DNA of 64,000 bases, taken from the NCBI GenBank assembly GCA_017516075.1, contig JAFWDS010000021.1, positions 17,151-81,150 of the forward strand. Direction: 5' to 3'. Each line of letters starts with the position of its first letter. The first letter of the stretch is position 1. The translations under genes and the position numbers were made by a program. This stretch comes from Candidatus Saccharimonadota bacterium (GTDB lineage Bacteria; Patescibacteriota; Saccharimonadia; Saccharimonadales; Saccharimonadaceae). The notes under the pieces were generated by a model, which was not told where the DNA came from, ran no database searches, and saw nothing but the letters and a program-made list of their open reading frames with translations. Of this stretch, positions 1,152 through 39,239 are shown piece by piece.

Positions 1152-2966
1152 CTAGGACCCTACCGTACACCTAATACTTTGCCCGCTGCGCTTATAGGTG
1201 TAGGTACCTGGGCTCACGTAGGAACTACTCAGGGGCAGGTAGTAGCTATAGCTGTAATTGAGCGCAGTAGACGACCAATAGTAGCCGAACGACCCTCTAT
1301 TGCCGGCCGACGACGTATTGAAGTTGCCGGAGTAGAGGAAGTTGTTAGGATAAGCTCTTAGCTTATTAGACGCATCACTGCCTTCTGGTGTGCCGGTGTA
1401 ATTTGGATAGGTTGAACTATCGTAATTAGCTGGTTTAATTCCACCATTAATACCATCAACTACTAGTGACCATAGTTCATTATTGGCTTCATTAGACTTA
1501 TCACCACCCTTAGGTAGATGCCAGCCCGCTGGACAGAGCGAAGTTCCCGTAGCTGATTGATTATTAGTACCATTATAAGTAAGGTCAGCAATCGCGGCAT
1601 GCCAAGTATAATAGTTACCGTAGGAATACATATTTCCACTATTGTCAGTTGGGCTAGATGCACGAGTTGAAGTATTGAGGTTATTATATCGTGGCATACG
1701 GTAACCTGGGTAATTTGAGGTGCCTATGTCTATACTAGCAGTACCTTCCTGGGTGCCACTGTAGTAGAGACTGTTTGTGGTATTGAGACTATCGAAGTTT
1801 TCGTTTTCTGCAGTAGCTAAACCTCCGAAGTTACCATAGGTAGCGGAAGTGCCATAGCCTTGGGCGAGAGTACCATCACTGTTATGCTCAGCAGTGCTTT
1901 CTAGTCTGAGGTTTTCAATCATCCAGCAGTTACCATCAGCGAGTTTGGCTACGGCGTAGGTATCGTTGTCGCGCTGATCGGTAAGGGCTGTCACTGCACC
2001 GCTTTGTAAGCTAGAGCAGCCGGACCAGTTTTGTAGATTACCAGCAGATTTAATCCATCTAGCATAAAGCGAAAGCCCAGGATTACTTCCGGTATATTGC
2101 CCGGCTGTGAAGGTGATTGTCTCTTGTGGACCTAAGTAGCCAGTTGTATCAGAATAATCAAAAGTCTTACTCCAACCAGCAAAACCATAACCTTCGCGTG
2201 AGAAGTTAGATGCAAGAAGTGTGGCGGAAGTATCAGAAGCAGTAATCGTCTGACACCCCATGGAGCCTTCTACATTAGAACCATTTGGATAATAGCAAAT
2301 TTGTCCAGCCTGTGTGGTCTCAGGATATAGTGGAGCATCTGCATCATTTGGGTATACCATAGTGTATTTAACTTTACCATTATAGCTTCCAGCTGGTTGA
2401 GTACTAGTTACATATACAGCATAAGTAGATTGTATATTAGCTCCAACTGTAGCATCAGTACCAGCTGTTCTAGTAGCTACTTTAGTATAAGTATCCGGTA
2501 CTGCATGATAGGAATCAAAGTCTGATAGTATGGTAGGAGCATATGTTCCAGTTACACTATTTAGTTTCATTGCCCAATTTGATGTGTTTCCATTTTGTGC
2601 TGTTCCGGTAGCTATATCGTATGTCGGTGCTAGTGTTCCTCCTACTGTAGCTAGCATTTTATTATTACCATATTCTTGGTTAGAATAACCAATGGCATAG
2701 ATAGAAAAACCATTAGCATCATTACATACAGCTTTAAGTGTAGTAGTACCAATATCAGCTACGTAAGTTCCTGATTCTACATTAGCCGTATGTGGTGTAT
2801 CAACAGTTCCAGTCATGGTACAAGCGACTGGGATACTGATAGCTACATCATCAATTATATCGTCAGCAGAAACTACATGAGAAGCCAGTATTGTTCCAGA
2901 ACAAAGAGTCAAGAATAATAAACCTAGAGTTGTTATTATTTGCTTCTTATGCTCTTGATTTATCAT
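1152..2966 (-). CDS. Secreted surface protein: signal peptide, WxL-like N-domain, InlB B-repeat-like segment, C-terminal FISUMP (Fibrobacter succinogenes major paralogous) domain
   Basis: Signal peptide; GY.FAGWS B-repeat motif; YAVAKLADGNCWMIENLRL, YGNYYTW, CPAGWHLP, YYWSST, SIRC motifs of the FISUMP family. Confidence 0.8.
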   Translation of the reverse strand: MINQEHKKQIITTLGLLFLTLCSGTILASHVVSADDIIDDVAISIPVACTMTGTVDTPHTANVESGTYVADIGTTTLKAVCNDANGFSIYAIGYSNQEYGNNKMLATVGGTLAPTYDIATGTAQNGNTSNWAMKLNSVTGTYAPTILSDFDSYHAVPDTYTKVATRTAGTDATVGANIQSTYAVYVTSTQPAGSYNGKVKYTMVYPNDADAPLYPETTQAGQICYYPNGSNVEGSMGCQTITASDTSATLLASNFSREGYGFAGWSKTFDYSDTTGYLGPQETITFTAGQYTGSNPGLSLYARWIKSAGNLQNWSGCSSLQSGAVTALTDQRDNDTYAVAKLADGNCWMIENLRLESTAEHNSDGTLAQGYGTSATYGNFGGLATAENENFDSLNTTNSLYYSGTQEGTASIDIGTSNYPGYRMPRYNNLNTSTRASSPTDNSGNMYSYGNYYTWHAAIADLTYNGTNNQSATGTSLCPAGWHLPKGGDKSNEANNELWSLVVDGINGGIKPANYDSSTYPNYTGTPEGSDASNKLRAYPNNFLYSGNFNTSSAGNRGSFGYYWSSTALNYSYSYYLPLSSSYVSPGTYTYKRSGQSIRCTVGS

Positions 2967-2993
2967 GCTTAAGTATTCCTTTTTTTCTAAATC

Positions 2994-4790
2994 TTACGCA
3001 CCAGGGGCTAAGCAACGAATACTCATTCCGCTGTACTTGTCGCTGTAGATCGTACCTGGGTAGACGCGGGCATTGTAGAGGTGTAGGTAGTAGGCAATAT
3101 CACTAGATAACGATGAAGACGACCAATAGTAGCTGCCGGAGCCACGACTGCCCACCGAGCCACTTCTGACGGAACCGGAAAAAACGAAGTTATTGGGATA
3201 GGCTCTTAGACCTTTGCTTGCAGATGTGTCAGTGGCACCAGTATTCACAGCAGTGTTTAAAGCATAAAACTCACCAGTAGTTCTGCTAGTATAGCCAGTT
3301 GGAATACGCCATCCAGTTGGACAAATAGAAGTAGTATTGCAATCTCTACCTCCGTAAGCAGTAGTGTCAGCAATAGTAGCTGCCCAAGTATAATAGTTGC
3401 CATAGCTATACATACTGGCGTCTGAGGTGCTGTTAGCTGCTGAATTGGAGGTTGGGTTACTTGGTCTGTCTGTAGCTGTGGTGGGAGTGTTTACGTTGTT
3501 ATAACGGGGGAACCTGTAGGCTTGGTCACTACCAGAAATAGTTTTATCGGTAGAGCCATCGGTGCTATATAGGCTATTTGCAGTAGTACTATTACTCGCC
3601 CATGGCGCTTCTGGATTAGCTAATCCAGCAAAGCTAGCATTATAACCTTGTGCTAACGAGCCACCAGTATTATCGGTTCCGGTATTTTCTAGGCGCATGT
3701 TCTCAATCATCCAGCAATTGCCATCGGCAAGTTTCGCCACAGCGTAAGTTTCATTATCGCGTTGGTCCGTAAGAGCTGTGACTGCGCCACTTTGTAAGCT
3801 AGAGCAACCAGTCCAGCCTTGGAGACTACCGGCAGATTTAATCCAATGAGCGTAGAGCGACAAGCCATTATTATTGCCAGAATAAGCACCTTCAGTGAAT
3901 TCTATGTATTCTTGTGGACCAAGGAAGCCAGTTGTATCAGAATAATCAAAGGTCTTACTCCACCCAGCAAAGCCATAACCTGCACGTGAGAAATTGGAGG
4001 CGAGAAGTACGGCAGAAGTTGGAGAAACGCCATCAGTAGTTCCAGACGCAGGAATAGTCTGGCAACCCATGGTTCCTTCAACATTGCTACCATTTGGATA
4101 ATAACAAATCTTGCCAGGTTCAGTTGCTTGTGGCGACAAAGGCGCTTCTGCATCATCCGGATGCACCAAAGTATACCTCACCTTCCCCTGATAAGTCCCA
4201 GCCTGCTGTGTAGGCGAAACAAATATTGCATAAGTAGATTGTATAGTAGAGCCAATTGTATTATCGGTCTGCGCTGCAAATGTCGCAACTTGTGTATATG
4301 TACTAGGTACAGTCCTATAGCTTCCAAATCCATTTAGTATTGTTGGAGCATAAGTCCCTTCTACTGCACTTAGTTTCATTGCCCAGTTAGATGTATTTCC
4401 AGAAGTAGCTGTACCAGTTACTATATTAGAAGGAGCAGGAGTAGCATTTCCTTGATACACCATTTCTGTATTACCATATGTATCTTCACTATATCCTATT
4501 GCATATACACTATATCCATCTTTATCATTACAAAATACTTTAATATTAGTGAGACCAATATCTGATTCATATTCATTATTGCGAATAGTAGCTGTATGTT
4601 CCGTATTACCACTAACCGCTTCAGACATACTACAAGACACTGGTACAGTCACATTTACTACGTCTATCACGTCGTCGGCGAAAGCCACCGCGCTAGATAG
4701 CGACATCGCCAAACCAAAAACAAACAAAACCAACCCCCCACACAAAGACAACTCTAGAGCCGATAATCCACTATGCTTTTTGACTCTCAT
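2994..4790 (-). CDS. Secreted FISUMP-domain surface protein (paralog 2)
   Basis: Same architecture and motifs (LADGNCWMIENMRL, YGNYYTW, CPTGWRIP, YYWSSS, SIRC). Confidence 0.8.
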   Translation of the reverse strand: MRVKKHSGLSALELSLCGGLVLFVFGLAMSLSSAVAFADDVIDVVNVTVPVSCSMSEAVSGNTEHTATIRNNEYESDIGLTNIKVFCNDKDGYSVYAIGYSEDTYGNTEMVYQGNATPAPSNIVTGTATSGNTSNWAMKLSAVEGTYAPTILNGFGSYRTVPSTYTQVATFAAQTDNTIGSTIQSTYAIFVSPTQQAGTYQGKVRYTLVHPDDAEAPLSPQATEPGKICYYPNGSNVEGTMGCQTIPASGTTDGVSPTSAVLLASNFSRAGYGFAGWSKTFDYSDTTGFLGPQEYIEFTEGAYSGNNNGLSLYAHWIKSAGSLQGWTGCSSLQSGAVTALTDQRDNETYAVAKLADGNCWMIENMRLENTGTDNTGGSLAQGYNASFAGLANPEAPWASNSTTANSLYSTDGSTDKTISGSDQAYRFPRYNNVNTPTTATDRPSNPTSNSAANSTSDASMYSYGNYYTWAATIADTTAYGGRDCNTTSICPTGWRIPTGYTSRTTGEFYALNTAVNTGATDTSASKGLRAYPNNFVFSGSVRSGSVGSRGSGSYYWSSSSLSSDIAYYLHLYNARVYPGTIYSDKYSGMSIRCLAPGA

Positions 4791-4923
4791 TTATACCTCT
4801 CATACTTATAATCCTATTTTATCACGCCCAAAATAAAAAACAAGCATTTTAGCTCTTGATTTTTTCCGAAACTTCTGCTATTATAAACATAAGCATATTA
4901 ATTAATATACAAAAGGAGCCAAA

Positions 4924-5112
4924 ATGGCACAAGCAAAAAGAAAAACTGCGACGAAAACTGCGAAAAAGACGACCATGGCGCGTCGTACCACCGGCACTCG
5001 TACTCGCAAGCAAGAACAACAACAAGGGCAGTCGAACATGTTCTTTGTTATCTCGATGAGCGTCCTTGCTGCCACCTTACTATTTGCAAACCTCTTAATG
5101 ATGGTAGCCTAA
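4924..5112 (+). CDS. Small basic protein with C-terminal transmembrane helix, hypothetical
   Basis: 62-aa ORF with AAGGAG SD upstream, Lys/Thr-rich N-terminus, hydrophobic C-terminus, followed by a terminator. Confidence 0.65.
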   Translation: MAQAKRKTATKTAKKTTMARRTTGTRTRKQEQQQGQSNMFFVISMSVLAATLLFANLLMMVA

Positions 5113-5123
5113 GTCGCATAGCT

Positions 5124-5153
5124 AAATACCCCTCGCCATGAGGGGTATTTTTT
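5124..5153. terminator. Intrinsic (probably bidirectional) terminator
   Basis: aaatacccctc-gccat-gaggggtattttt between convergent genes. Confidence 0.8.
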
Positions 5154-6444
5154 ATGCAATAATTCCCCCACCAATGCAAATCTCGCCGTCATATAATACT
5201 GCCGACTGCCCACTCGCCGGCCGCTTCACTTCGTGCTCAAAATGCAACGTTTCGCCATCAAACGTCGCAGGGATTAGGGGCGCACGATGTCTTAAGCGAA
5301 CTAAGACCTGCTTTTTCTGAAGCATAACATGATTTGAATTTTCAACACGTATATTCCTGACGTCACCGACAGGTTCGTCCCGAAGGGACGGTTCTGCCGG
5401 CTGACCAGCGTATGACGTGCTTGAAAATTCAAGTCGCGCTGAAGAAAAAGCAGGTTTAGTTCGCATAAAAACATCTTTCAGTTTTAGTTCCTTAACCCAC
5501 AAATTTTCATCATTCAGATTTTTCGACACATATACGATATTTTGCCCGACATCTTTTTTGACCACATAATACGGCAACCCATCATTTACTACGCCCTTCT
5601 CACCATCTAGATACAACCCATGCCTCTGCCCAATTGTATAAAACACCGCCCCTTCGTGAAAACCGAGCACCTTGTTGCTCTCGATTTCGCGAATCTCACC
5701 TGGTTGAGCATCGATATATTCCTTGAGAAAATCCTTCATTCCTACCTCGCCAACAAAACACACCCCCATGGACTCTTTTTTGTAAGCATTATGCAGCCCA
5801 TGCTTCTTGGCGAGCTCCTTCACCTCCGGTTTCCGCATCTCACCTATGGGAAACAAAGTATGTTCCAAAGCTTCCTCGGAAATGCGATAAAGAAAATACG
5901 TCTGATCCTTATTCTCATCTATGGCGCGCATTAGACAAGTTCGGGACGATTGCGAACTAACTGTTTGGGGGCTTCCGGAGGTTACGACCGAGGATGAGGG
6001 CGCGAGCCCCGTAACGACGGGCGCGAGCGACCCGTCCCCCAAACAGTTATGTTCGAATCGTCCTATTCTCGCATAATGCCCCGTAGCAATATAATCAGCC
6101 CCTGCCTCCATCGCTTTCTCGTAAAAGAGCTTGAATTTAATCTCTTGATTACACATTATATCTGGATTTGGCGTATTCCCGGCGCGAAACTCACGTAGCA
6201 TATATTCCACCACCTTCTCTCGATATTCTTTTTCAAAATCCCAAACGAAAAAATCAATACCGAGCTTCACTGCCACTCTCTTGGCGTCGGCCAGGTCTTC
6301 TGCCCATGGGCACTTCATGCCAGGGAGGTCTCTAGACCAGTTTTTCATATATACACCAACAACGCGATATCCTTGCTGCTTCAAAAGCAAAGTCGATACG
6401 CTCGAATCTACTCCGCCACTCATTCCAACATACGCTGTTTTCAT
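5152..6444 (-). CDS. mnmA: tRNA-specific 2-thiouridylase MnmA carrying two in-frame palindromic insertions
   Basis: SGGVDS, NPDIMCNQEIKF, ATGHYAR, KDQTYFL, KKESMGVCFVG, YTIGQRHGL, GQSAVLYDGE.C.GGG; start reassigned to ATG 6444 (MKTAYVG). Confidence 0.95.
   Translation of the reverse strand: MKTAYVGMSGGVDSSVSTLLLKQQGYRVVGVYMKNWSRDLPGMKCPWAEDLADAKRVAVKLGIDFFVWDFEKEYREKVVEYMLREFRAGNTPNPDIMCNQEIKFKLFYEKAMEAGADYIATGHYARIGRFEHNCLGDGSLAPVVTGLAPSSSVVTSGSPQTVSSQSSRTCLMRAIDENKDQTYFLYRISEEALEHTLFPIGEMRKPEVKELAKKHGLHNAYKKESMGVCFVGEVGMKDFLKEYIDAQPGEIREIESNKVLGFHEGAVFYTIGQRHGLYLDGEKGVVNDGLPYYVVKKDVGQNIVYVSKNLNDENLWVKELKLKDVFMRTKPAFSSARLEFSSTSYAGQPAEPSLRDEPVGDVRNIRVENSNHVMLQKKQVLVRLRHRAPLIPATFDGETLHFEHEVKRPASGQSAVLYDGEICIGGGIIA
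5296..5464. mobile_element. Intragenic palindromic element, family B, in mnmA
   Basis: Arms gcgaactaa(g)acctgctttttct 5296-5318 / agaaaaagcaggtttagttcgc 5443-5464; 41-bp and 73-bp blocks shared with the iscS copy. Confidence 0.85.
5945..6062. mobile_element. Intragenic palindromic element, family A, in mnmA
   Basis: Perfect 14-bp inverted repeat taactgtttggggg / cccccaaacagtta; 80-bp core (5964-6043) identical to dnaX 50649-50728. Confidence 0.9.
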
Positions 6445-6527
6445 AAGTATTATTATACCATAATATGACATAAAAATACCAAAAATCAAGTCTACTAAAA
6501 CTAACATAACCATGATATATAATAAAT

Positions 6528-8360
6528 ATGAGAAAAAGGTGTGTGCTATTTGCGATGCCAATCCCGATTATTTTGGCGATTTTTGGAATTTTGTCACAAA
6601 ACAGTGTTTTTGCTCTTACCTACTCTACCGACGTTAATGTACAGTTTACTTTTAATCCGGCTCTGCAGATAGATTTATCTTCTGCGGATCTTCTAATTTC
6701 TAATCTTTCTCCTGGCACTGCAGCTGATTCTAATGTAATAGATGTAATAGTAAAGACTAATAATATCACCGGCTATACTCTGAATGCTACAGTGGGCAAT
6801 AATACTACATATGATACCCGCGATTTAGTACATGAAGTATCTGGTTCTTCAGCTAATTTTGCTAGTATTAACTACGGCTCTAGCCTAGCTAGTCTTACTA
6901 CTGACAATACTTGGGGTTATTCTTATTCTACTGATGGTGGTACAAATTGGGAAGACTATGATGGATTGCCACTTTATAGTGATGCTACTAATATTGCTAC
7001 ACTAAAAGACTCTACTACCCCTCCTGCTACTAGTACTGGAGATGTAGTAAACTTCAAAATTGCCGCAAAAGCCAGTACTATGCAAGCTTCTGGTGATTAT
7101 AATAACGTGATTAACTTTATTGCTACAGCAAATCCTATACCCACTTTAGGTCCAGTAGCCTGCGAGAGTGGCAAAATTTGTTACAATGCTAACGTATTGG
7201 ATTCAATCGAAGTAGAAGGGACGATGGGGAAACCTACTGCAAATGCAAACACTACCACCATGCTTCTCGCATCTAACTTCAGTAGAGATGGCTATGGTTT
7301 TGCTGGTTGGAGTGATACTTACGACTATAGCGGTAACTTATATGGTCCACAGGAAGAAATCACTACTCCGGCAGATATGTCTAGCGGACTTCCGCTTTAC
7401 GCTATCTGGGTTCAATCCGCTGGCAGTATGCAGACCAGTGATGCAACTAGCGCCTGTAATAGTCTCACTGCCGCTACTCCTGGATTTAAATCTCTTGCTA
7501 GTGTCACGGCTCTTACTGATGAACGCGATGGCGAAACTTACGCCATCGCTAAACTCGCCGATGGTAATTGTTGGATGATTGAAAACCTAAGACTAGATAA
7601 TACCGCAGACCATAATTCCGATGGTACATTAGCGCAGGGTTACAATTCTAGCTTTGCTGGTCTCGCTAGCCCAGAAGCGCCATCGCTCTTCGCTAACGCA
7701 ACCACTGCAAATACTTTGTATAGTATAGATGGCTCCACCGATAAAACTATTTCTGGTAGTGATCAAGGCTACAGATTTCCACGATATAACAATGTAAATA
7801 CTCCTACTGCAGTCGCCGACAGACCGAGCAATCCCACCACTAACTCCGCAACTAATAGCACCTCAAATGCTGGCTTATATAGTTATGGTAATTACTATAC
7901 CTGGTCGGCTGCTATAGCGGACACTACGCATTATCCCACAAATAACCAATCTGTCACCAGTACTTCTATATGTCCTACCGGTTGGCGCTTGCCAAAAGGT
8001 GGCAATAAATCAAATGAGGCAAATAATGATTACTGGGCGCTTGTTGTAACTGGAATTAATGGCGGCATAAATCCATCTAATTACGATAGCGAAACTAGAC
8101 CATATTATACTAGTTCCCCTGAAGGTCCGAGTATCTCGAATGCTCTTAGAGCATACCCCAATAATATTATTTATTCCGGATATGCCGAAGGTGGTTCAGT
8201 GGAAAATCGCGGTTCAGGTGGTGGACATTGGTCGTCTACGGCGGTTTCTACTACTAATGCCTACTCTATAGTGTTTTACAGCAACTACGTTTACACGGGT
8301 ACAGGCAGTAATTCCAAGTATTTCGGAAGAACTATCCGCTGTTTTGCCCCTGGCACATAA
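6528..8360 (+). CDS. Secreted FISUMP-domain surface protein (paralog 3)
   Basis: Signal peptide, WxL-like N-domain, GYGFAGWS, LADGNCWMIENLRL, YGNYYTW, CPTGWRLP, HWSST, TIRC. Confidence 0.8.
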   Translation: MRKRCVLFAMPIPIILAIFGILSQNSVFALTYSTDVNVQFTFNPALQIDLSSADLLISNLSPGTAADSNVIDVIVKTNNITGYTLNATVGNNTTYDTRDLVHEVSGSSANFASINYGSSLASLTTDNTWGYSYSTDGGTNWEDYDGLPLYSDATNIATLKDSTTPPATSTGDVVNFKIAAKASTMQASGDYNNVINFIATANPIPTLGPVACESGKICYNANVLDSIEVEGTMGKPTANANTTTMLLASNFSRDGYGFAGWSDTYDYSGNLYGPQEEITTPADMSSGLPLYAIWVQSAGSMQTSDATSACNSLTAATPGFKSLASVTALTDERDGETYAIAKLADGNCWMIENLRLDNTADHNSDGTLAQGYNSSFAGLASPEAPSLFANATTANTLYSIDGSTDKTISGSDQGYRFPRYNNVNTPTAVADRPSNPTTNSATNSTSNAGLYSYGNYYTWSAAIADTTHYPTNNQSVTSTSICPTGWRLPKGGNKSNEANNDYWALVVTGINGGINPSNYDSETRPYYTSSPEGPSISNALRAYPNNIIYSGYAEGGSVENRGSGGGHWSSTAVSTTNAYSIVFYSNYVYTGTGSNSKYFGRTIRCFAPGT

Positions 8361-8461
8361 AAAGCATCTAGTAAACCTCCTCCCTCACCCCCCTCCCCCA
8401 TATTCCTTAGATATGATATGATTAAATCCAAGAAGGAGATTTCTAATAATAACTTAACCCA

Positions 8462-8490
8462 TTGACAATATGGGATATATGCCATATATT
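8462..8490 (+). promoter_or_regulatory. Sigma70-type promoter of the toxin-antitoxin pair, overlapped by an inverted repeat (possible operator)
   Basis: TTGACA-17 nt-TATATT; atatgg...ccatat palindrome overlapping the spacer and -10. Confidence 0.55.
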
Positions 8491-8513
8491 ATATATAGGC
8501 TGGAAAGGATACT

Positions 8514-8768
8514 ATGCCAACAGTAAGTTATTTTTATGGAATCATCATTGTGATGTATTTGCGTAGCAAGGAGCACAACCCTCCGCACATTCACGCCATC
8601 ACGCAAGATTTCGACGCGCCATTCTCTATAGAAACCGGCGAAATAATGGAAGGCATTTTTCCCAACAAAGCCAAAACTCTTGTTAAAGAGTTCATAATTA
8701 AATATCAAAAGGAATTAAAGGAGATGTGGGACAAAGAAGAATACTTCAAACTCCCACCTTTACAATAA
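8514..8768 (+). CDS. DUF4160-family protein (putative toxin)
   Basis: 84 aa, FYGIIIVMY...EHNPPHIHA motif typical of DUF4160. Confidence 0.8.
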   Translation: MPTVSYFYGIIIVMYLRSKEHNPPHIHAITQDFDAPFSIETGEIMEGIFPNKAKTLVKEFIIKYQKELKEMWDKEEYFKLPPLQ

Positions 8769-9220
8769 TGTTTCATAAAGTAATAAAACTAGAATATAAA
8801 GATAACGTTACTCTAGAAATGACTTTTCAAGATGGTAAAGTTATGCGTTATGACATGTCAGTTCTTTTTGATAAATATCCAGCACTTAAGGCTCTCAAAA
8901 ACAGAGATTTATTCCTGTCCGGTAAAATGAGTTCTTATGGCATCCGCTGGAACGATGATTTAGATATAGAAGCCGAAACTATCTATCAAGATGGCGAATT
9001 GGTTCGCACTACCAAACTCCCCATCAATTTTGAAATAGCCTATATGGTCAGCTCGGCAAGAGCTAAATCTGGTTTGTCGCAAGCAAAACTCTCCGAATTA
9101 ACCGGTATAGATCAAGCAGACATTTCCAAGATAGAAAACGGCTTATCTAATCCATCCATCTCTACGCTTGAAAGAATTGCAAAAGCTCTTCGGGCTGATT
9201 TGGAAATATCGATTAAGTAG
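8768..9220 (+). CDS. DUF2442 + XRE helix-turn-helix protein (putative antitoxin)
   Basis: TAATG coupling to upstream gene; L.F.DG..(Y)D...GI.W.DDLDI..E.IY N-domain; GLSQAKLSELTGIDQADISKIENGLSNPS HTH. Confidence 0.8.
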   Translation: MFHKVIKLEYKDNVTLEMTFQDGKVMRYDMSVLFDKYPALKALKNRDLFLSGKMSSYGIRWNDDLDIEAETIYQDGELVRTTKLPINFEIAYMVSSARAKSGLSQAKLSELTGIDQADISKIENGLSNPSISTLERIAKALRADLEISIK

Positions 9221-10604: not shown

Positions 10605-10621
10605 AAAAATATTATAACATA

Positions 10622-11215
10622 TTATTGCGCTTCTGTAAATTTACCCTCAAACATATATTCTTTTTCGTCGTCCACTAAGGTCAAAGTTTTCCGGGCCTGG
10701 TCTATGCTATATTCATATTCGTTCACTACGTCGTACAGCCATTTGGTCTCAATTTTGAGCTTCCCATCCTCAATCGCCCAGATAAAATCATAATCATTCT
10801 TATGCGAATTTGTCGTCAAAGTTCCCTTACCAATCTCGGTGAACTTCCAAATCACCGCATCGTCAGATGTACAATTCGGTATCAATTTTTCCTCTTCACT
10901 GGGGTTTTCACCGATAGAATCCGGTTCGATACAATTCGTGTTGCTATCTAGTGTCCACTCCTCCGCTTTTATCAAAAACTCCCCATCAGCGATTCTTTCA
11001 CCACCAGTATATTTTAAAACCAAAACTATTACCCCAGCAATCAAAGCCAGCACTCCAATCGCAAAAACTACCACCGATACAACAAATTTTTTCGGTTTCT
11101 TGTCTTTGTTCTCTGTTTTTTTCTCTTTAGTCGGTGATTTCGGGGCAGTCTTCCCAGTAAATGCCTGGGTCAAATCCGCCTGGCTCACCTTTTTATCTAC
11201 ATTTCCATTATCCAT
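10622..11215 (-). CDS. Hypothetical single-pass membrane protein
   Basis: 197-aa ORF, Lys-rich N-terminus, one TM helix, acidic beta-rich C-domain. Confidence 0.7.
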   Translation of the reverse strand: MDNGNVDKKVSQADLTQAFTGKTAPKSPTKEKKTENKDKKPKKFVVSVVVFAIGVLALIAGVIVLVLKYTGGERIADGEFLIKAEEWTLDSNTNCIEPDSIGENPSEEEKLIPNCTSDDAVIWKFTEIGKGTLTTNSHKNDYDFIWAIEDGKLKIETKWLYDVVNEYEYSIDQARKTLTLVDDEKEYMFEGKFTEAQ

Positions 11216-11224
11216 AACCCTATT

Positions 11225-11578
11225 TTAGCAATAGAGTTTTGATTTGACAAGCTCCAGATACGAGCGCGCCGCCTTGCGAAAATTCAACAGCTCCTCGCCT
11301 TCAATTTTTTTGTAATCCTGCTTCCCTGCCCGCTTATACACTCCGGTTGGTCGAATTTCGTAACGAATTGTCATTTCTTGTGGTATTCCGAACTTATTCA
11401 AGTACCTCTCATGCCAAATCCACACGTTACCTCGAGTCATGAAAAACTCTCTCTGGTGCCCAGCCGGAATCGGTCCAAAAATCGTCCGCCCCAGCGCCGA
11501 TTCAGCATTAATCAGCTCGTCGTAGGTAAATCTATTGGAGTAGCGCGGATTGCGGGTTAGCAATGTTTTGAGCGACAT
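11225..11578 (-). CDS. Hypothetical protein
   Basis: 117-aa ORF with GAGGAG SD, co-oriented in operon. Confidence 0.7.
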   Translation of the reverse strand: MSLKTLLTRNPRYSNRFTYDELINAESALGRTIFGPIPAGHQREFFMTRGNVWIWHERYLNKFGIPQEMTIRYEIRPTGVYKRAGKQDYKKIEGEELLNFRKAARSYLELVKSKLYC

Positions 11579-11680
11579 TCTTCAATCTCCTCTGATATAG
11601 CAGTTAATTCCTGATATACTTCAAGAGTATCTTTGGTAGCCTCAAAATCATAAGCCTCGCACTTGGCGAAGGAAGGAACT

Positions 11681-15794: not shown

Positions 15795-15956
15795 AGCTAT
15801 GCATCTGGAGAAGTAAAACAACGTACTGCTCGCCCTAAGTACTTATCATAGTCACGTGTACCAGGACAAACAAATGAATTATCTAAACGTAAACTATAGG
15901 CACTGACAGAATTTTTTCCTGTAGATGAATAATAAGTGCCATATATGCCACGATTC

Positions 15957-17759
15957 TTAAGGAGAATGGGTAGATAAGCATCGAATAGAAGCGCCAGCGA
16001 CCTTGACACTATATGCTAAACCAGCACTAAAATTATCTTCTGCGACGACTAGATGGTAAGAATGGAGTTCGTCTTTAGTAGTGGATGACCAGTAAATACT
16101 CCCCGAGCCACGCCTCATTGCCGAGGCTTCATAATAAAAGCCAGAATAAAGATAATTATTAGGAAATTTTCTGAATTCTCTATTTACGGCAAATGTATCA
16201 CTACCGCTAATCTGAGAACTAGAATAAATAAAACCGAGAAGAATCGAGAATTCGCCAGACTCGCCACCAGACGGGATATGCCATCCTTCTGGACAAAGCG
16301 AAGTGTTAGAGACACTAGTATCACTCGAAGCGTGCGGAGCAGTATCTGCAATTACGGCCGCCCAAGTATAATAATTGCCATAACTATACATACCTGCATT
16401 AGTGGTGTTATTAACGGCATCAGTAGTAGTAGGTTCCTGTGGGCGATTTTCGGACGCAGATTGGTTATTCCAGTTATTATATCGCGGCATGCGGTAAGCC
16501 GGATAGCTATCGGGGCCAATACTTATGGTGTCGTTGCTGCCATCATAACTATACAAGCTGTTAGCTGAATAATTAACAGAAATTCCTGTACTTTCCGCAT
16601 TGGCCAAACCTCCAAAGTTCCCATAAGTAGCAGATGTGCCATAGCCTTGAGCTAAAGCACCATCGGAGTTATGTTCGGCAGTATTCTCCAATCTCAGATT
16701 TTCAACCATCCAACAATTGCCATCGGCGAGTTTAGCCACAGCGTAGGTCTCATTATCTCGTAAATCGGTCAAAGCGGTCACGGCTCCAACTGGCATAGTG
16801 GTATTATTCGGGCAAGTCCATCCTTGTAGACTACCAGCAGATTCCACCCAATGCGCATAAAGCGACAGACCACTATTGTTGCCAGAATAAGCACCTTCGG
16901 TGAATTCTATGTATTCCTGTGGTCCGAGAAATCCGGTACTATCAGAATAATCAAAGGTCTTGCTCCACCCAGCAAAGCCATATCCTGCGCGTGAGAAGTT
17001 AGATGCAAGAAGAGTAGCAGATGTAGGAGAAACGCCATCGGTAGTTCCAGACTCCGGAATAGTCTGACATCCCATAGTCCCCTCAACGTTAGAGCCATTT
17101 GGATAGTAGCAAATTTTACCAGCTTCGGTGGCTTGCGGGGTAGGCGGTACTTCGCTATTCGGATGCACTAAAGTATACCTCACCTTCCCTTGATAAGTCC
17201 CAGCCTGTTGTGTAGGAGAAACAAATATTGCATAAGTAGATTGTATAGTAGAACCAATCGTATTATCAGTCTGTGCTGCAAATGTCGCAACTTGTGTATA
17301 TGTACTAGGTACAGTCCTATAGCTTCCAAATCCATTTAGTATTGTTGGAGCATAAGTTCCTTCTACTGCACTTAGTTTCATTGCCCAGTTAGATGTATTT
17401 CCACTTGTAGCAGTACCAGTTATTATATTAGAAGGAGCAGGAGTATCATTTCCTTGATACACCATTTCTGTATTACCATATGTATCTTCACTATATCCTA
17501 TTGCATATACACTATATCCATCTTTATCATTACAAAATACATTAATATTTGTGAGTCCAATGTCTGATTCATATTCATTATTACGAATAGTAGCTGTATG
17601 TTCCGTATTACCACTAACCGCTTCAGACATACTACAAGACACTGGTACAGTCACATTTACTACGTCTATTACGTCGTCGGCGAAAACGCTGTGCGCAAAA
17701 ACCAACCCAGCAAATAATACAAATAACACCAATAATGCTCTACACCTCGCATTAACCAT
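15957..17759 (-). CDS. Secreted FISUMP-domain surface protein (paralog 4)
   Basis: N-domain ~96% identical (nt) to paralog 2; FISUMP motifs; start reassigned to ATG 17759. Confidence 0.8.
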   Translation of the reverse strand: MVNARCRALLVLFVLFAGLVFAHSVFADDVIDVVNVTVPVSCSMSEAVSGNTEHTATIRNNEYESDIGLTNINVFCNDKDGYSVYAIGYSEDTYGNTEMVYQGNDTPAPSNIITGTATSGNTSNWAMKLSAVEGTYAPTILNGFGSYRTVPSTYTQVATFAAQTDNTIGSTIQSTYAIFVSPTQQAGTYQGKVRYTLVHPNSEVPPTPQATEAGKICYYPNGSNVEGTMGCQTIPESGTTDGVSPTSATLLASNFSRAGYGFAGWSKTFDYSDSTGFLGPQEYIEFTEGAYSGNNSGLSLYAHWVESAGSLQGWTCPNNTTMPVGAVTALTDLRDNETYAVAKLADGNCWMVENLRLENTAEHNSDGALAQGYGTSATYGNFGGLANAESTGISVNYSANSLYSYDGSNDTISIGPDSYPAYRMPRYNNWNNQSASENRPQEPTTTDAVNNTTNAGMYSYGNYYTWAAVIADTAPHASSDTSVSNTSLCPEGWHIPSGGESGEFSILLGFIYSSSQISGSDTFAVNREFRKFPNNYLYSGFYYEASAMRRGSGSIYWSSTTKDELHSYHLVVAEDNFSAGLAYSVKVAGASIRCLSTHSP

Positions 17760-17817
17760 AACCCTATTATAACACAAATTTTAAATATGCTATAATAAAA
17801 TTATCAATGGAGGAAAT

Positions 17818-26611: not shown

Positions 26612-26613
26612 TT

Positions 26614-35576: not shown

Positions 35577-37367
35577 ATGAAAATCAAACGGCGAGTTATC
35601 ATTCTTGGTAGCCTCATTGGCACCACGTTTATACAAGGCATCGCATTAATGTCTACGCATGCACAGGCGGAAAATAGCGTTGTCGATAATGTCACTATCA
35701 CCGTTCCTTCTGCTTGTTCGATGAGCGCCAATGGTATGACCAGCCACAACGCCGAAATTAATAACGGCACCTATCGAGACAATATCGGTACTACTACCTT
35801 TCAAGTATTTTGTAATGACGAAGGAGGTTTTTCTGTTTATGCTGTAGGCTTTACTGGCGAAGAGTTTGGTAGCACTGTTCTCACTAGCTCAGCGTTAGGC
35901 TCAAATCACGATATCATTACGGGTACTGCCACATCAGCCGGTACACCAGATGTCTCCAACTGGGCTATGAGAGTTCAGACCAATTCCGGCGCAGCCTATC
36001 CAGTAGCTATTGAAAACGATTTTGATGAGTATCATGTAGTACCAGACGATTATACCAGAGTAATCAGCCGTGAGAATCCTACAGATATCGGTGCGTCCGC
36101 AACTGGTGCTTCGTTTACTACGACCTATTCGGCTTATATTAGTAAAACTCAACTTGCCGGCACTTACACTGGGCAAGTTAAATATACTCTTATTCATCCC
36201 GCCAGCGAGCTCCCGATAGAACCTCAAGTCACTCCTTCTGGATACATCGGCTACTATCCTAACGCGTCAAACGTCACAGATACCATGAGTGACCAACCTG
36301 TCGAAACCACTGATACTGGTGCAACTCTTTGGGGTTCCAATTTCAAACGCAAAGGCTACGGTTTTGCCGGCTGGTCCTCGACATACGACTATTCTGATCC
36401 AAATGGTTTCTATGGGCCTAATGCAGATATTGATTTCACGGCTGGTACTTATACTGGTGATAACGACGGCTTATCTCTATATGCTTATTGGATCAAATCT
36501 GCTGGGACTTTTCAAGAATGGGACGGCTGTAGTAGTCTAAATGTTGGTGACGTTACTGCTCTCACCGACTCACGCGATGACGAAACTTACGCTGTCGCCA
36601 AGTTAGCTGATGGCAATTGCTGGACTATCGAAAACCTTCGTCTTGGTCATGATGCAACTATTACCCCCGCAGACACTCAATCCACCAATGACGCATTTGG
36701 CGGCGCCTTCACTACTCTCGCCGAAGCCGAAACCAACACCTTTAATAACACTGGCACGGCTAATACTCTTTATAGTTCATCCAATATTACTGGTAGCTAT
36801 GCCGAATACCGCTACCCGCGTTATAACGACAACAACACCAGACTAGGTTCGGTTGCAAACGAAATGCAAGATCCAAGCGATAATATTAGAAGCTACGGTC
36901 ATTATTATACTTGGTCTGCCGCTATCGCCAATACCGAATACTTTTCGCAAAACAATCAAAACGCCACTACCGCATCACTTTGCCCAAGCAGTTGGACTCT
37001 GCCGGTCGCCGGTAATGATACTAGGAGCTCTAGTAGTGATTATCGCATTCTAGCCGAATCTATCATTGGTACAACTCCAAACGATACTTGGACCACTAAT
37101 CGTTCCAGATATTATAATGTAGATGGTGGCACCAATGGTACTATAGCGTCAAAGCTCATGAGAAGCTTCCCTGCTAACTTTATCTATTCTGGCAGCATTA
37201 CCGGCTCTTCCAATTCCGGAAAAGGTGTCAGTGGATACTATTGGTCGGCTACGTCTGCTAGTAGTAACTATGCTTATAGCTTTGGCCTCACTGCCACTAC
37301 AGTCTATCCAGGCACCAACTTCAACACCAAAACCGAAGGTGTCTCCATCCGCTGTGTCAAAAAATAG
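35577..37367 (+). CDS. Secreted FISUMP-domain surface protein (paralog 5)
   Basis: Same architecture; LADGNCWTIENLRL, YGHYYTW, CPSSWTLP, YYWSAT, SIRC. Confidence 0.8.
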   Translation: MKIKRRVIILGSLIGTTFIQGIALMSTHAQAENSVVDNVTITVPSACSMSANGMTSHNAEINNGTYRDNIGTTTFQVFCNDEGGFSVYAVGFTGEEFGSTVLTSSALGSNHDIITGTATSAGTPDVSNWAMRVQTNSGAAYPVAIENDFDEYHVVPDDYTRVISRENPTDIGASATGASFTTTYSAYISKTQLAGTYTGQVKYTLIHPASELPIEPQVTPSGYIGYYPNASNVTDTMSDQPVETTDTGATLWGSNFKRKGYGFAGWSSTYDYSDPNGFYGPNADIDFTAGTYTGDNDGLSLYAYWIKSAGTFQEWDGCSSLNVGDVTALTDSRDDETYAVAKLADGNCWTIENLRLGHDATITPADTQSTNDAFGGAFTTLAEAETNTFNNTGTANTLYSSSNITGSYAEYRYPRYNDNNTRLGSVANEMQDPSDNIRSYGHYYTWSAAIANTEYFSQNNQNATTASLCPSSWTLPVAGNDTRSSSSDYRILAESIIGTTPNDTWTTNRSRYYNVDGGTNGTIASKLMRSFPANFIYSGSITGSSNSGKGVSGYYWSATSASSNYAYSFGLTATTVYPGTNFNTKTEGVSIRCVKK

Positions 37368-37403
37368 CTATCGTCTATATAACACATATGTTATAATAAG
37401 AAC

Positions 37404-39239
37404 ATGAAAAAGGCTGTGCTTATTGATGTTGGGTTTATTACCGCTATGCTTATTTCTGCACAAATACTCACATCTAGCGTTTCTCGTGCCGAAAGCGCTA
37501 CGGCTAATGCTACAGTGACAGTAGCAGAGGCCTGCACTATGACTGCTACGATAGACTCGGCTCATTCTACTATAGTAAACCCTGGGCAATATGTAGACGA
37601 GATAGGACAAACTACACTTAAAGTAGTATGTAATGATGCAGAAGGATATGCTATATATGCAGTAGGAAATGCTAATAATGAATATGGGAATAATAAACTA
37701 CTAGCGAGTCTAGGCGGAACACTTAATCCAACTTACGATATAGCTACTGGTACCGCTACTTCTGGGAATACTTCTAACTGGGCGATGAAAGTAAATGCTG
37801 TAAGTGGTGCTTATACCCCTACTATTCAAAACAGTTTTGGTAGTTATCACGAAGTACCAAATGCTTACATGAAAGTAGCTGAGTATGCTTCTAATACCGA
37901 TACTTCTACTGGCTCTTCTATTACTTCTACTTACGCCGCTTTTGTAAAGCCCGATCAACCAGCCGGAAACTATAATGGAAAAGTCAAATACACCATGGTA
38001 CATCCAGTTAGCGCAAATTCGGTTGCTCCGCAAACTACTGGGGCAGGACAAATCTGCTATTATCCAAATGGACAAAACGTAGAAGGCACTATGGGCTGCC
38101 AAACAGTGTCCGCATCCGATACTTCAATTACGCTGCTAGCTTCAAACTTTTCCCGCGAAGGCTATGGCTTCGCGGGATGGAGCAAGACTTATGATTATTC
38201 CGATGGCACCGGCTTCTTCGGACCACAAGAAGACATTACCTTCACAGCTGGTGAATACACTGGAGATAATTCAGGACTTTCGCTCTATGCTCATTGGATT
38301 AAGTCGGCTGGCAACCTCCAGAGCTTCTCTTGCCCGAACAATACTACTATGTCGATAGGCTCCGTCACCGCCCTTACCGACCAACGCGATAACGAAACCT
38401 ACGCAGTAGCAAAACTCGCCGACGGCAACTGCTGGATGATAGAAAACCTCCGCCTAGAAAGCACTAATGTTGATAACTCTACTGGTTTACTAGCGGAGGG
38501 GTATGGCACTAGTTCAACTTATGGTAACTTTTCTGGCTTAGCTGTGGCGGAAAGTACCAATTTTTCTGACACCACCGCTGCAAATAGTCTTTATTATTCT
38601 GGCACCCAGGAAGGTACCGCTACTATAAATATAGGTACATTGGATGGTCCCGGCTATCGTATGCCGCGTTACAACAATACAAATACGTCTGCTAGGGCTA
38701 CCAATAACCCAACAACTAATAATAGCGCTATGTATTCTTATGGTAATTATTATAATTGGCACGCCGCTATAGCAGACCTTATTTACAACGACACGCTCAA
38801 CCAATCTACTACTGGCACTTCGCTCTGCCCTAATAGTTGGCACTTGCCAACAGGTGGAACAATTACCACAACTGTGAACGTTACAGGAGATCCAACCACC
38901 TGGCGCGAATTCTACAATCTAGGGTACACTATTATGGGTAGTGTAGCAAACGATAGCGTGGCTCAGGCAGATGCATATTACGATAATAATACTACCAATG
39001 CAAATAACGATACTGCTACCAAAGCTTTTCGTAAATACCCTAATAACTTTATTTATTCCGGCAACTATAATAATTCGTCGGTAGTTAATCAGGGTAAATA
39101 TGGTCTTTATTGGTCGTCTACTTCATATAGTTATAATCTTGCCGACTATCTGTACGTTAGTAACTCTAACGTTTATCCGGGTACGCGTTATTACAATAAG
39201 AGCTACGCCAGAAGTATTAGATGTCTTAGATCATCCTAG
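37404..39239 (+). CDS. Secreted FISUMP-domain surface protein (paralog 6)
   Basis: Same architecture; LADGNCWMIENLRL, YGNYYNW, CPNSWHLP, LYWSST, SIRC. Confidence 0.8.
   Translation: MKKAVLIDVGFITAMLISAQILTSSVSRAESATANATVTVAEACTMTATIDSAHSTIVNPGQYVDEIGQTTLKVVCNDAEGYAIYAVGNANNEYGNNKLLASLGGTLNPTYDIATGTATSGNTSNWAMKVNAVSGAYTPTIQNSFGSYHEVPNAYMKVAEYASNTDTSTGSSITSTYAAFVKPDQPAGNYNGKVKYTMVHPVSANSVAPQTTGAGQICYYPNGQNVEGTMGCQTVSASDTSITLLASNFSREGYGFAGWSKTYDYSDGTGFFGPQEDITFTAGEYTGDNSGLSLYAHWIKSAGNLQSFSCPNNTTMSIGSVTALTDQRDNETYAVAKLADGNCWMIENLRLESTNVDNSTGLLAEGYGTSSTYGNFSGLAVAESTNFSDTTAANSLYYSGTQEGTATINIGTLDGPGYRMPRYNNTNTSARATNNPTTNNSAMYSYGNYYNWHAAIADLIYNDTLNQSTTGTSLCPNSWHLPTGGTITTTVNVTGDPTTWREFYNLGYTIMGSVANDSVAQADAYYDNNTTNANNDTATKAFRKYPNNFIYSGNYNNSSVVNQGKYGLYWSSTSYSYNLADYLYVSNSNVYPGTRYYNKSYARSIRCLRSS

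What the first reader, a model, noticed from the sequence alone, without database searches (positions are those of the whole stretch)
1152..39239. Seven FISUMP surface-protein paralogs are segmental mosaics of each other
Seen: paralog 1 (1152) shares GCSSLQSGAVTALTDQRDN with paralog 2, AEHNSDG.LAQGYGTSATYGNFGGLA with paralog 4, LYYSGTQEGTA.I.IG...PGYRMPRYNN and WHAAIADL.YN...NQS.TGTSLCP with paralog 6, and LPKGG.KSNEANN..W.LVV.GINGGI.P.NYDS with paralog 3. Paralogs 2 and 3 share LYS.DGSTDKTISGSDQ.YRFPRYNNVNTPT...DRPSNPT.NS. The nearest relative switches every 20-50 aa, at conserved motifs. Inference: recurrent gene conversion or cassette shuffling generates a combinatorial adhesin repertoire, plausibly for host-range variation of an epibiont.
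Basis: partly seen in the sequence, partly recalled or inferred. Interest (0 to 1): 0.72.

Follow-up and report, generated by a model that had tools for sequence, protein, structure and literature searches.

The report
Mosaic FISUMP surface-protein gene family
A tiny-genome gut bacterium (Saccharibacteria, from ruminants) spends about 11% of its DNA on some 50 copies of one secreted protein family, and these copies have repeatedly swapped pieces with each other; this is a familiar way of varying surface proteins, seen here in a family where I found no earlier description.

Summary
The mosaic is real. Coordinates 1152-39239 hold six, not seven, full-length FISUMP (TIGR02145) genes. A seventh starts at 62627. 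They belong to a 53-ORF family covering 11.3% of a 924-kb Saccharibacteria MAG from ruminant gut.

Four tests support recombination:
- The nearest paralog switches along each gene in nucleotide sliding windows.
- 49 tracts of 92-541 nt are 94-99% identical inside gene pairs that are otherwise 52-83% identical.
- Synonymous divergence is 0.04-0.24 inside the tracts tested and above 1 or saturated outside.

The reading needs correction. They are old segment types, also found in other species and present in all pairwise combinations. The recent tracts lie mostly in the N-terminal and middle parts and link window genes to paralogs on other contigs; within the window only P2 and P4 share one. Breakpoints are not enriched at conserved motifs.

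Most copies have their own promoter, so this is not a silent-cassette system. The last ~55 codons carry a DGR-like NNC pattern. Congeners have true DGRs on FISUMP genes; this genome has no reverse transcriptase.

Ongoing exchange and host-range function remain untested.

The parts
1152..2966 (-). P1, 604-aa FISUMP paralog. Layout: signal peptide, N-terminal beta-sandwich, Listeria-Bacteroides-type repeat region, FISUMP domain.
   Evidence: TIGR02145 59.9 bits against a cutoff of 41.65. AF2 model pLDDT 88. It lies 28 nt downstream of P2 and has no -10 box of its own.
2319..2876 (-). Recent exchange tract in P1 (about aa 31-216), shared with paralogs on contigs C31 and C27.
   Evidence: 431-484 nt at 94.8-95.7% identity against 69-74% elsewhere in the same pairs. 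dS is 0.19-0.24 in the tract and 0.6 to above 2 outside.
2994..4790 (-). P2, 598-aa paralog.
   Evidence: Its best donors switch along the gene: P4 (aa 35-211), then C31_8891, C36_33689, and C9_61856/C19_3.
4158..4683 (-). P2 side of the P2/P4 shared tract.
   Evidence: 516 nt at 96.1% identity against 61.8% in the rest of the pair. dS is 0.146 in the tract, 1.23 in the middle part and saturated in the C-terminal part. Differences fall in blocks separated by 83-94 identical nt.
6528..8360 (+). P3, 610-aa paralog with the second, very divergent type of N-terminal domain.
   Evidence: aa 28-339 group with C34_729, C13_6687 and C9_61856. aa 340-572 group with C20_19873 and C34_21242.
15957..17777 (-). 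P4, paralog (likely start ATG at 17759, giving 600 aa).
   Evidence: The 600-aa form is the one on record in public assemblies. TGTTATAAT lies just upstream of that ATG.
17160..17685 (-). P4 side of the P2/P4 shared tract.
15797..15955 (-). Orphan relic of about 52 C-terminal codons directly after the P4 stop codon (NRGIYGTYYSST...RAVRCFTSPDA*).
   Evidence: tblastn hit outside any family ORF. Translation shown. Mismatches to the paralog C-termini show no excess at adenines, so it is not a DGR template. A like relic follows paralog C37_3498.
35577..37367 (+). P5, 596-aa divergent paralog with no recent tract.
   Evidence: Best windowed identity to any paralog is 73% or less. It has the weakest mosaic signal.
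37404..39239 (+). P6, 611-aa paralog.
   Evidence: aa 38-181 are 86-93% identical to C11_15543, C34_21242 and C36_33689, lower elsewhere. TGTTATAAT lies 6 nt before the ATG.
1173..1325 (-). Example (P1) of the DGR-variable-region-like last ~50 codons present in all core paralogs.
   Evidence: About 19 codons of NNC/NNY type. Entropy at codon positions 1 and 2 (mostly 1.2-1.9) exceeds that at position 3 (0.7-1.3).
62627..64000 (+). Start of a 1833-aa multi-FISUMP protein: the seventh family gene in the window, outside the stated range.
   Evidence: hmmsearch hit C14_79777_85275.

Best explanation
What it is. The six genes are members of a large, dispersed multigene family: 53 ORFs, 104.5 kb, 11.3% of the genome. 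The proteins are secreted and have four parts: a signal peptide, a pilin/TasA-like beta-sandwich, a Listeria-Bacteroides-type repeat, and a FISUMP domain.

How it works. The genes evolve by repeated homologous recombination between paralogs, most likely non-reciprocal gene conversion dependent on RecA. Collinear in-frame segments of about 90-540 nt are overwritten by the sequence of another copy.

Two age layers are visible.
- Old: discrete segment types within the FISUMP domain have been reassorted into many combinations and are shared with other species.
- Young: tracts of 94-99% identity, mostly in the N-terminal and middle parts, connect copies on different contigs. Within the window only P2 and P4 share one.

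A third source of variation is confined to the last ~55 codons. This is the footprint of diversity-generating-retroelement (DGR) mutagenesis. It is active on FISUMP genes in congeners, but this genome lacks the enzyme.

Most copies carry their own promoter, so the result is a standing repertoire of many different expressed proteins rather than switching at one expression site.

Shown: the mosaic structure, its statistical support, the age layers, and the presence of recA. Inferred: non-reciprocity, the intragenomic source of donors, surface ligand binding, and a role in attachment to a host cell.
For: Family and domains.

Switching of the nearest paralog along each gene at nucleotide level.

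Tracts: 49 high-identity tracts inside diverged gene pairs.

Synonymous divergence: 0.04-0.24 inside the tracts tested, above 1 or saturated outside them in the same pair. This excludes plain differences in selective constraint.

PHI test: z=-14.6 for the six genes and -58 for 16 genes; third codon positions alone give -5.2 and -18.8; 0 of 500 permutations in every case.

Segment trees: four segment trees are mutually rejected (AU p<=5e-4). Three sub-segments within the FISUMP domain are also mutually rejected (AU p<=0.014).

Copying-model likelihood: the real column order beats shuffled columns by about 300-600 log units for P1-P4 and P6.

Four-gamete pattern of segment types, which also occur in other species.

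Internal position of the P2/P4 tract: it is flanked on both sides by diverged sequence.

Orphan 3' relics after two genes.

RecA is present.

In-genome paralogs are closer to each other than to any other species' homologue: at most 66% amino-acid identity to P1 in other species, against 76% for the best in-genome copy.

Independent metaSPAdes scaffolds reproduce P1, P2 and P3 apart from small blocks in P1 and P2.

The MAG is not a mixture of strains.
Against: No raw or long reads were available, so the long-range phasing of each mosaic gene rests on assemblies.

Several paralogs are cut at contig ends, so the donor set is incomplete.

The direction and non-reciprocity of exchange cannot be shown from one genome.

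No tract is 100% identical over more than 140 nt, so nothing proves exchange is still going on. Truly identical tracts would, however, have broken the k=141 assembly.

My PHI test, Nei-Gojobori dS estimate and copying HMM are my own implementations. The HMM parameters were arbitrary and over-switch in regions of low identity.

ComEC is present, so import of alleles from other strains is not excluded.
Confidence: 0.8

Rival explanations
1. The donors are other strains or species. Alleles enter by natural transformation and replace parts of resident copies, so the mosaic reflects exchange between genomes rather than conversion within one genome.
For: ComEC and RecA are present. Segment types are shared with other species. 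P1, P2 and P3 are absent from the syntenic locus of four congeners, so the family turns over quickly.
Against: For the young tracts the matching sequence, at 94-99% identity, is present in the same genome. The best homologue of P1 in any other species genome is only 66% identical in protein. Strains of the same species could not be surveyed as donors.
Confidence: 0.12
2. The mosaic is an artefact. Short-read metagenome assembly threaded or collapsed paths between similar paralogs and produced chimeric genes.
For: Seven core paralogs are cut at contig ends. Logan contigs over the locus are fragmented into pieces of 150-650 nt.

metaSPAdes scaffolds of the same strain differ from the window only in blocks inside P1 and P2 (one further SNP in bipA, in one scaffold). 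All 12 P2 variants equal the P4 base. In those assemblies P2 and P4 carry the same haplotype at the marker residues of both blocks (N-AV in both genes, or K-DI in both genes). That is what bubble collapse would give, because 83-94 nt identical stretches separate the blocks.
Against: Collapse can only blur near-identical tracts. It cannot create them next to 60%-identical sequence. Both P2-type and P4-type N-termini and both C-termini exist whichever way they are joined.

The window assembly used k=141, which is longer than any identical stretch between P2 and P4 (94 nt).

Two assemblers give the same full-length P1, P2 and P3 outside the small blocks in P1 and P2.
Confidence: 0.05
3. There was no recombination. 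The paralogs share one duplication history, and the patchwork reflects uneven constraint, chance retention of ancestral motifs, and DGR hypermutation of the C-terminus.
For: The cited peptides are saturated at synonymous sites, so they could be old conserved states. The C-terminal codons show a DGR-like pattern, and congeners have DGRs on FISUMP genes.
Against: dS differs 5- to 10-fold or more between segments of the same gene pair. Trees are mutually rejected. P2's best match changes from P4 (96%) to C29_2/C9_61856/C19_3 (97%), while P4 is below 60% there. DGR action covers only about 55-95 terminal codons and only adenines.
Confidence: 0.03

Closest known systems
Helicobacter pylori outer-membrane-protein paralogs (babA/babB/babC, sabA/sabB, hop family) evolving by inter-locus gene conversion (from my own knowledge)
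   Same: Dispersed, full-length, separately promoted surface-protein genes. Segments are overwritten by RecA-dependent conversion, producing chimeric adhesins. Conserved parts act as homology and variable parts bind ligands.
   Different: About 50 copies in a 0.92-Mb genome, against a handful per subfamily. The fold is different (FISUMP, not a beta-barrel OMP). No phase-variable repeats were seen. Function and ongoing exchange are untested here.
Neisseria opa gene family (from my own knowledge)
   Same: A multicopy family of complete genes in which hypervariable segments are reassorted among loci, giving combinatorial variants.
   Different: opa genes are switched on and off by pentamer repeats. 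No such repeats were found here, and the copy number is far larger relative to genome size.
Expression-site plus silent-cassette systems (Neisseria pilE/pilS, Borrelia vlsE, Mycoplasma genitalium MgPa/MgPar, Treponema tprK; from my own knowledge)
   Same: Segmental, collinear, in-frame conversion generates mosaics of a surface protein.
   Different: Here the copies are full-length ORFs with signal peptides, and most have their own -10 box. Only two short orphan 3' relics exist. There is no single expression locus.
DGR-diversified proteins with a Fib_succ_major domain (listed among DGR target domains in PMC4159848 and PMC5758913)
   Same: Same domain family. Three congener loci have the layout target, ~300-aa ORF, reverse transcriptase, plus a TR/VR pair with adenine-specific mismatches over the last 70-95 codons. 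The window genes show the matching NNC codon pattern.
   Different: The own genome has no RVT_1 hit and no match to the congeners' RT or accessory ORF. The congener TRs find only 59-78% matches to divergent family members' C-termini, not a template copy. DGR action cannot explain exchange in the N-terminal and middle parts.
Plasmodium falciparum var genes (from my own knowledge)
   Same: A large family, a sizeable share of a small genome, with ancient segment types reshuffled by ectopic recombination into mosaics that persist across lineages.
   Different: Eukaryotic, with mutually exclusive expression. Here the organism is bacterial and expression control is unknown.

Membership tests
FISUMP / Fib_succ_major domain proteins (TIGR02145, PF09603) | Match to the family HMM above the curated cutoff | tested here: met
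   All six score 48.6-65.4 bits against a TIGR02145 cutoff of 41.65. On the Pfam model only P4 passes its cutoff of 33.9.
Multigene family evolving by inter-paralog gene conversion | High-identity tracts embedded in diverged paralog pairs, with lower synonymous divergence inside the tracts | tested here: met
   49 tracts. dS is 0.04-0.24 inside the tracts tested and above 1 outside.
Multigene family evolving by inter-paralog gene conversion | Phylogenetic incongruence along the gene beyond chance | tested here: met
   PHI gives 0/500 permutations. AU tests reject the other segments' trees.
Multigene family evolving by inter-paralog gene conversion | Non-reciprocal transfer, with the donor left unchanged | not testable with these tools
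   This needs ancestral and derived genomes, or long-read populations. Synteny of the flanking housekeeping genes is conserved in congeners, which fits but does not prove it.
Multigene family evolving by inter-paralog gene conversion | Homologous recombination machinery present | tested here: met
   RecA at C10, 466.8 bits.
Expression-site / silent-cassette antigenic variation (pilE/pilS, vlsE, MgPa type) | One expressed locus plus promoterless, truncated donor cassettes | tested here: not met
   The core copies not cut by a contig end are full-length ORFs with signal peptides. Most have TGnTATAAT or TATAAT a few nt before the ATG. Only two relics of about 50 codons lie outside ORFs.
Expression-site / silent-cassette antigenic variation (pilE/pilS, vlsE, MgPa type) | Variant alleles arising within a clonal population | tested here: inconclusive
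   Assemblies of the same strain differ in blocks of P2 that equal P4. Within each such assembly, however, P2 and P4 carry the same haplotype at the marker residues, as expected from assembly collapse. No raw reads were available.
Diversity-generating retroelement system | Reverse transcriptase gene | tested here: not met
   No RVT_1 hit in the own genome, which is 95.7% complete. No tblastn hit to the congener RT or accessory ORF. RVT_1 is present in 61 of 201 genomes of the family.
Diversity-generating retroelement system | TR/VR repeat pair with mismatches at template adenines | tested here: not met
   No TR-like copy in the own genome when searched with the congener TRs, which find only 59-78% matches to divergent family members' C-termini. 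The orphan relic after P4 shows no adenine bias. The feature is met in congener loci L098, L099 and L101.
Diversity-generating retroelement system | Variable region with NNC/NNY codons on a fixed scaffold at the C-terminus | tested here: met
   About 19 such codons in the last ~55 alignment columns.
Donor-strand-exchange fibre subunits (TasA, chaperone-usher pilins, Pam pilins of CPR bacteria) | Fold of the N-terminal domain matches fibre subunits, with a free N-terminal strand | tested here: inconclusive
   Foldseek hits TLP-1a, a TasA fibre, CfaB and FimA with probability 0.97-1.0, but E is about 1e-3 to 5e-2 and TM (target-normalised) is 0.35-0.59. Residues 29-44 have low confidence. Pam pilins have a different two-domain layout (PMC13278184), and no Pam sequence was compared.

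The most novel reading that the evidence does not exclude
An obligate episymbiont with a 0.92-Mb genome keeps more than 10% of its DNA as a library of about 50 independently promoted fibre-plus-lectin-like genes. The binding end of these genes is varied by stacked mechanisms. One is DGR mutagenesis of the last ~55 codons, active in congeners and fossil here. The other is RecA-driven reassortment of older, trans-specific segment types. On this reading, paralog recombination has taken over as the diversity generator after the retroelement was lost. The N-terminal TasA/pilin-like domain would polymerise into a surface fibre displaying the variable domain for host-cell recognition.
Probability: 0.25. 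Interest if true: 0.7.

Novelty: new member of a known kind. Interest (0 to 1): 0.5.

Why it matters
Saccharibacteria live attached to other bacteria, and how they recognise hosts is largely unknown. A family that takes 11% of a minimal genome, is secreted, is a DGR target in sister species, and is kept as a recombining mosaic is a strong candidate for the recognition layer.

It gives concrete genes to test for binding. It also offers a natural comparison between lineages that keep the retroelement and one that relies on recombination alone.

There is a practical warning too. Short-read assemblies of such loci differ between pipelines in ways that mimic gene conversion.

Tried and rejected
1. 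Ongoing conversion from allele variants. Five metaSPAdes scaffolds of the same strain differ from the window only in blocks of P1 and P2 (one further SNP in bipA, in one scaffold), and all 12 P2 variants equal the P4 base. This looked like live conversion. The P4 proteins on the same scaffolds carry the same haplotype as P2 at the marker residues. I therefore judge this to be assembly collapse across the 83-94 nt identical stretches.

2. Read-level phasing. Only Logan contigs were available, not raw reads. They are fragmented over the locus, and three of the four runs I laid appear to be the same data.

3. Expression or strain check with runs X21-X23. A ~98% relative holds P5, but P6 is not recovered. 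Depth is 3-6x and the library kind is unknown, so this is inconclusive.

4. DGR in the own genome. No RT, no accessory ORF and no TR were found. The relic after P4 is not a TR.

5. Fold of the FISUMP domain. A confident AF2 model (pLDDT 84) has no PDB match (best E 0.13), and there is no PDB sequence match. The C-type-lectin assignment therefore remains unverified here.

6. Breakpoints at conserved motifs: not supported.

7. The copying HMM over-switches where identity is below 80%. I used it only for the likelihood contrast and the long segments.

9. Literature searches for FISUMP or Fibrobacter succinogenes major domain together with Saccharibacteria, and for gene conversion in Saccharibacteria, found nothing relevant.
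Full report
WHAT IS THERE

The window is C14:17151-81150 of a 923,922-bp, 37-contig genome that is 95.7% complete. Titles of related loci place it among Candidatus Saccharibacteria (Ca. Nanosyncoccus-type) MAGs from yak, sheep, goat and buffalo gut.

Coordinates 1152-39239 hold six ORFs of about 600 aa: P1 1152-2966(-), P2 2994-4790(-), P3 6528-8360(+), P4 15957-17777(-), P5 35577-37367(+) and P6 37404-39239(+). All six pass the curated cutoff of TIGR02145, 'FISUMP domain-containing protein'. I found no seventh copy in that range. The other large ORFs there are MnmA, BipA, ABC transporters and a 1340-aa protein. A seventh family gene starts at 62627 and runs off the window.

A profile built from the six genes finds 53 ORFs in the genome, covering 104,547 bp or 11.3%. 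About 23 are close 'core' relatives. Seven of those are cut at contig ends.

TIGR02145 hits occur in only 37 of 201 genomes of the taxonomic family. This genome has the most candidate domains, 65.

THE OBSERVATION

One needs four rather than three free residues. Three are exclusive to the named pair among the 23 paralogs examined.

At nucleotide level the nearest paralog of each window gene changes along its length.
- P1 is 92-99% identical to C27_4395, C31_8891 and C31_32837 over about aa 40-215. It then matches C30_33273, C29_2 and C27_4395. Beyond about aa 340 it is only 60-80% identical to a changing set.
- P2 is 93-99% identical to P4 over aa 26-200. It then matches C31_8891, C36_33689, and C29_2/C9_61856 (up to 98%).
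- P3 joins an N-terminal half of one clade to a FISUMP half of another.
- P5 has no close segment with any paralog.

IS IT MORE THAN CHANCE, AND IS IT RECOMBINATION?

1. A maximal-segment scan found 49 tracts of 92-541 nt at 94-99% identity. They sit inside gene pairs whose remaining sequence is 52-83% identical.

2. Nei-Gojobori estimates give dS 0.04-0.24 inside the tracts tested. Outside them, in the same pair, dS is above 1 or beyond saturation. For example, P2/P4 give 0.146 in the tract, 1.23 in the middle part and saturation in the C-terminal part. C27_4395/C9_61856 give 0.119 against 1.41. Differences in protein constraint cannot produce this.

3. My implementation of the PHI test gives z=-14.6 for the six genes and -58 for 16 full-length genes. 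Using third codon positions only gives -5.2 and -18.8. None of 500 permutations was as low.

4. ML trees for four segments differ strongly. C34_729 sits with P3 in the N-terminal segment but with C30_33273 (100% support) in the last segment. Each segment's data reject the other three trees (AU p<=5e-4).

5. The same holds inside the FISUMP domain alone. PHI gives z=-3.6 and -7.7, and sub-segments of 70-120 codons reject each other's trees (AU p<=0.014).

6. In a copying model the true column order is favoured over shuffled columns by about 300-600 log units for P1-P4 and P6, and by about 90 for P5.

CORRECTIONS TO THE READING

The quoted peptides have pS 0.63-0.83 between the two genes that share them, and their nucleotide identity is only 72-82%. 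They are old.

I classified four variable regions of the FISUMP domain into a/b types. The same types occur in homologues from other species. All four combinations exist for each pair of neighbouring regions. The C-terminal patchwork among the window genes is thus an ancient, selectively maintained set of segment types that has been reassorted. It is not recent conversion among neighbours.

The young tracts lie mainly in the N-terminal domain and the middle region, and they mostly link window genes to copies on other contigs. Within the window only P2 and P4, 13 kb apart, share one. The tandem pairs P1-P2 and P5-P6 do not.

Tract boundaries are not enriched in conserved columns: 0.608 against 0.601, P=0.21. 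They do cluster at the end of the N-terminal domain.

IS EXCHANGE STILL GOING ON?

Exact copies of P1, P2, P5, P6 and the 600-aa form of P4 occur on 5-17 public contigs each. P3 occurs there as gene calls with later start codons. Near-identical variants also exist.

Five metaSPAdes scaffolds covering up to 14.8 kb of the window differ from it only in three small blocks, apart from one SNP in bipA in one scaffold. The blocks are P1 2577-2736, P2 4356-4444 and P2 4539-4581. All 12 P2 variants equal the P4 base, which at first looks like live conversion.

However, the P4 proteins on the same scaffolds show the same haplotype as P2 at the marker residues of the two blocks. It is N-AV in both genes on one scaffold and K-DI in both on another. 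The blocks are separated by 83-94 nt of identity between P2 and P4.

That pattern is what collapse of a two-copy repeat in a small-k de Bruijn assembly gives. The window's own k141 contigs keep the two copies distinct. I therefore treat these variants as probable artefacts.

Only Logan contigs, not raw reads, were available. They are fragmented across the locus. Ongoing exchange is neither shown nor excluded.

COULD THE WHOLE MOSAIC BE AN ARTEFACT?

This is unlikely. Near-identical tracts next to 60%-identical sequence exist whichever way contigs are joined. k=141 exceeds the longest identical stretch between P2 and P4, which is 94 nt. Two assemblers agree on full-length P1-P3 outside the small blocks in P1 and P2. 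The MAG has no long duplicated regions other than this family, and C28/C29 share only the gene and not its flanks, so it is not a strain mixture.

MECHANISM AND CONTEXT

RecA and ComEC are present.

All exchanges are collinear and in frame. The P2/P4 tract is internal, with diverged signal-peptide and downstream sequence on either side. This fits gene conversion better than duplication.

Directly after the stop codons of P4 (window about 15797-15955) and of C37_3498 lie orphan copies of the last ~50 codons. They are not adenine-biased, and I read them as leftovers of a 3' segment replacement.

Most copies have TGnTATAAT or TATAAT a few nt before the ATG. P1 sits 28 nt behind P2. This is therefore not an expression-site plus silent-cassette system.

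In four congeners the housekeeping order alaS-mnmA-iscS-tatD-bipA is kept, but P1, P2 and P3 are absent. A family member follows bipA, the P4 position, in two of them. The family is turning over quickly.

A SECOND DIVERSIFIER

The last ~55 alignment columns contain about 19 codons of NNC/NNY type (AAC, AGC, TAC, GGC, GAC and others). Positions 1 and 2 are more variable than position 3.

Fib_succ_major is a listed DGR target domain (PMC4159848, PMC5758913).

This genome has no reverse transcriptase. It has no match to the congeners' RT or accessory ORF, and the congener TRs match only the C-termini of divergent family members at 59-78% identity. RVT_1 occurs in 61 of 201 genomes of the family.

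Three loci in two congeners are complete DGRs. Each has a FISUMP target, a ~300-aa ORF and an RT. Each also has an inverted TR whose mismatches to the target's last 70-95 codons fall at adenines in 34/35, 28/33 and 25/26 cases.

The window genes thus carry a DGR footprint without a DGR. This bears on the last ~55 codons only and cannot explain the mosaic upstream.

WHAT THE PROTEINS ARE

AlphaFold2 with a 46-sequence alignment gives pLDDT 88 for P1.

The N-terminal beta-sandwich weakly resembles subunits of donor-strand-exchange fibres: TLP-1a, TasA, CfaB and FimA. Probability is 0.97-1.0, E is about 1e-3 to 5e-2, and target-normalised TM is 0.35-0.59.

The FISUMP domain, modelled separately at pLDDT 84, has no PDB fold or sequence match.

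Pam pilins of CPR bacteria also use donor-strand exchange, but their two-domain layout is different (PMC13278184). I did not test membership.

A secreted ligand-binding fibre or adhesin is a reasonable inference. A role in host range is untested.

VERDICT

This is a real, statistically solid case of a recombining surface-protein multigene family. It is ordinary in mechanism. It is notable for its size relative to the genome, for its two age layers, and for coexisting with DGR-type variation in the same domain. I found no description of it in the searchable literature.

Noticed in passing
L098:6441-10574; L099:3-3303; L101:2337-7823 (congener genomes G144 and G196): Three complete DGRs target FISUMP genes. 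Each has the layout target, unannotated ~300-aa ORF with no Pfam hit, RT. In each the template repeat lies beyond the RT and is inverted relative to the target and RT. Adenine-specific mismatches: 34/35, 28/33 and 25/26.
   Followed up: partly
window 15797-15955 (-); genome C37:3350-3508: Orphan, stop-terminated copies of the last ~50 codons of a FISUMP gene lie immediately after the stop codons of P4 and of C37_3498. They look like leftovers of a replaced 3' end, or possible donor fragments.
   Followed up: partly
upstream of P3, P4, P6 (window 6514-6519, 17766-17774, 37389-37397) and many other paralogs: An extended -10 box (TGnTATAAT) sits only 6-8 nt before the ATG of most family genes. 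No Shine-Dalgarno sequence lies between, which suggests leaderless or near-leaderless transcripts.
   Followed up: no
window 2577-2736, 4356-4444, 4539-4581: Public metaSPAdes scaffolds of the same strain differ from the k141 assembly only in these blocks inside P1 and P2 (one further SNP in bipA, in one scaffold). In those scaffolds P2 and P4 carry the same haplotype at the marker residues. This is probable repeat collapse that mimics gene conversion, and a warning for population analyses of such loci.
   Followed up: yes
window 1-15000 compared with L102-L105: The order alaS-mnmA-iscS-tatD-bipA is conserved in four congeners, but P1, P2 and P3 are missing there. These copies were inserted between housekeeping genes in this lineage, with no mobile-element gene noticed beside them.
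   Followed up: partly
window 37404-39239: In runs X21-X23 a ~98%-identical relative covers P5 and the intergenic region, but P6 is not recovered at 97% identity or above. Either P6 is replaced in that strain, or the depth (3-6x) is too low to tell.
   Followed up: partly
window 5152-6561 (mnmA): Most congener MnmA matches split into two pieces (query residues about 39-168 and 207-469). The window's MnmA therefore carries an extra ~40-residue insert. This agrees with other first-stage notes on in-frame inserted elements in housekeeping genes of this genome.
   Followed up: no
genome C4:5316-5795 and 10844-11401 compared with C30:78414-78894 and 73329-73884: These are the repeats of 400 bp or more at 90% identity or above that lie outside the family ORFs found. 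They are two 480-560 bp segments at 91-95% identity shared by contigs C4 and C30. I did not identify them.
   Followed up: no
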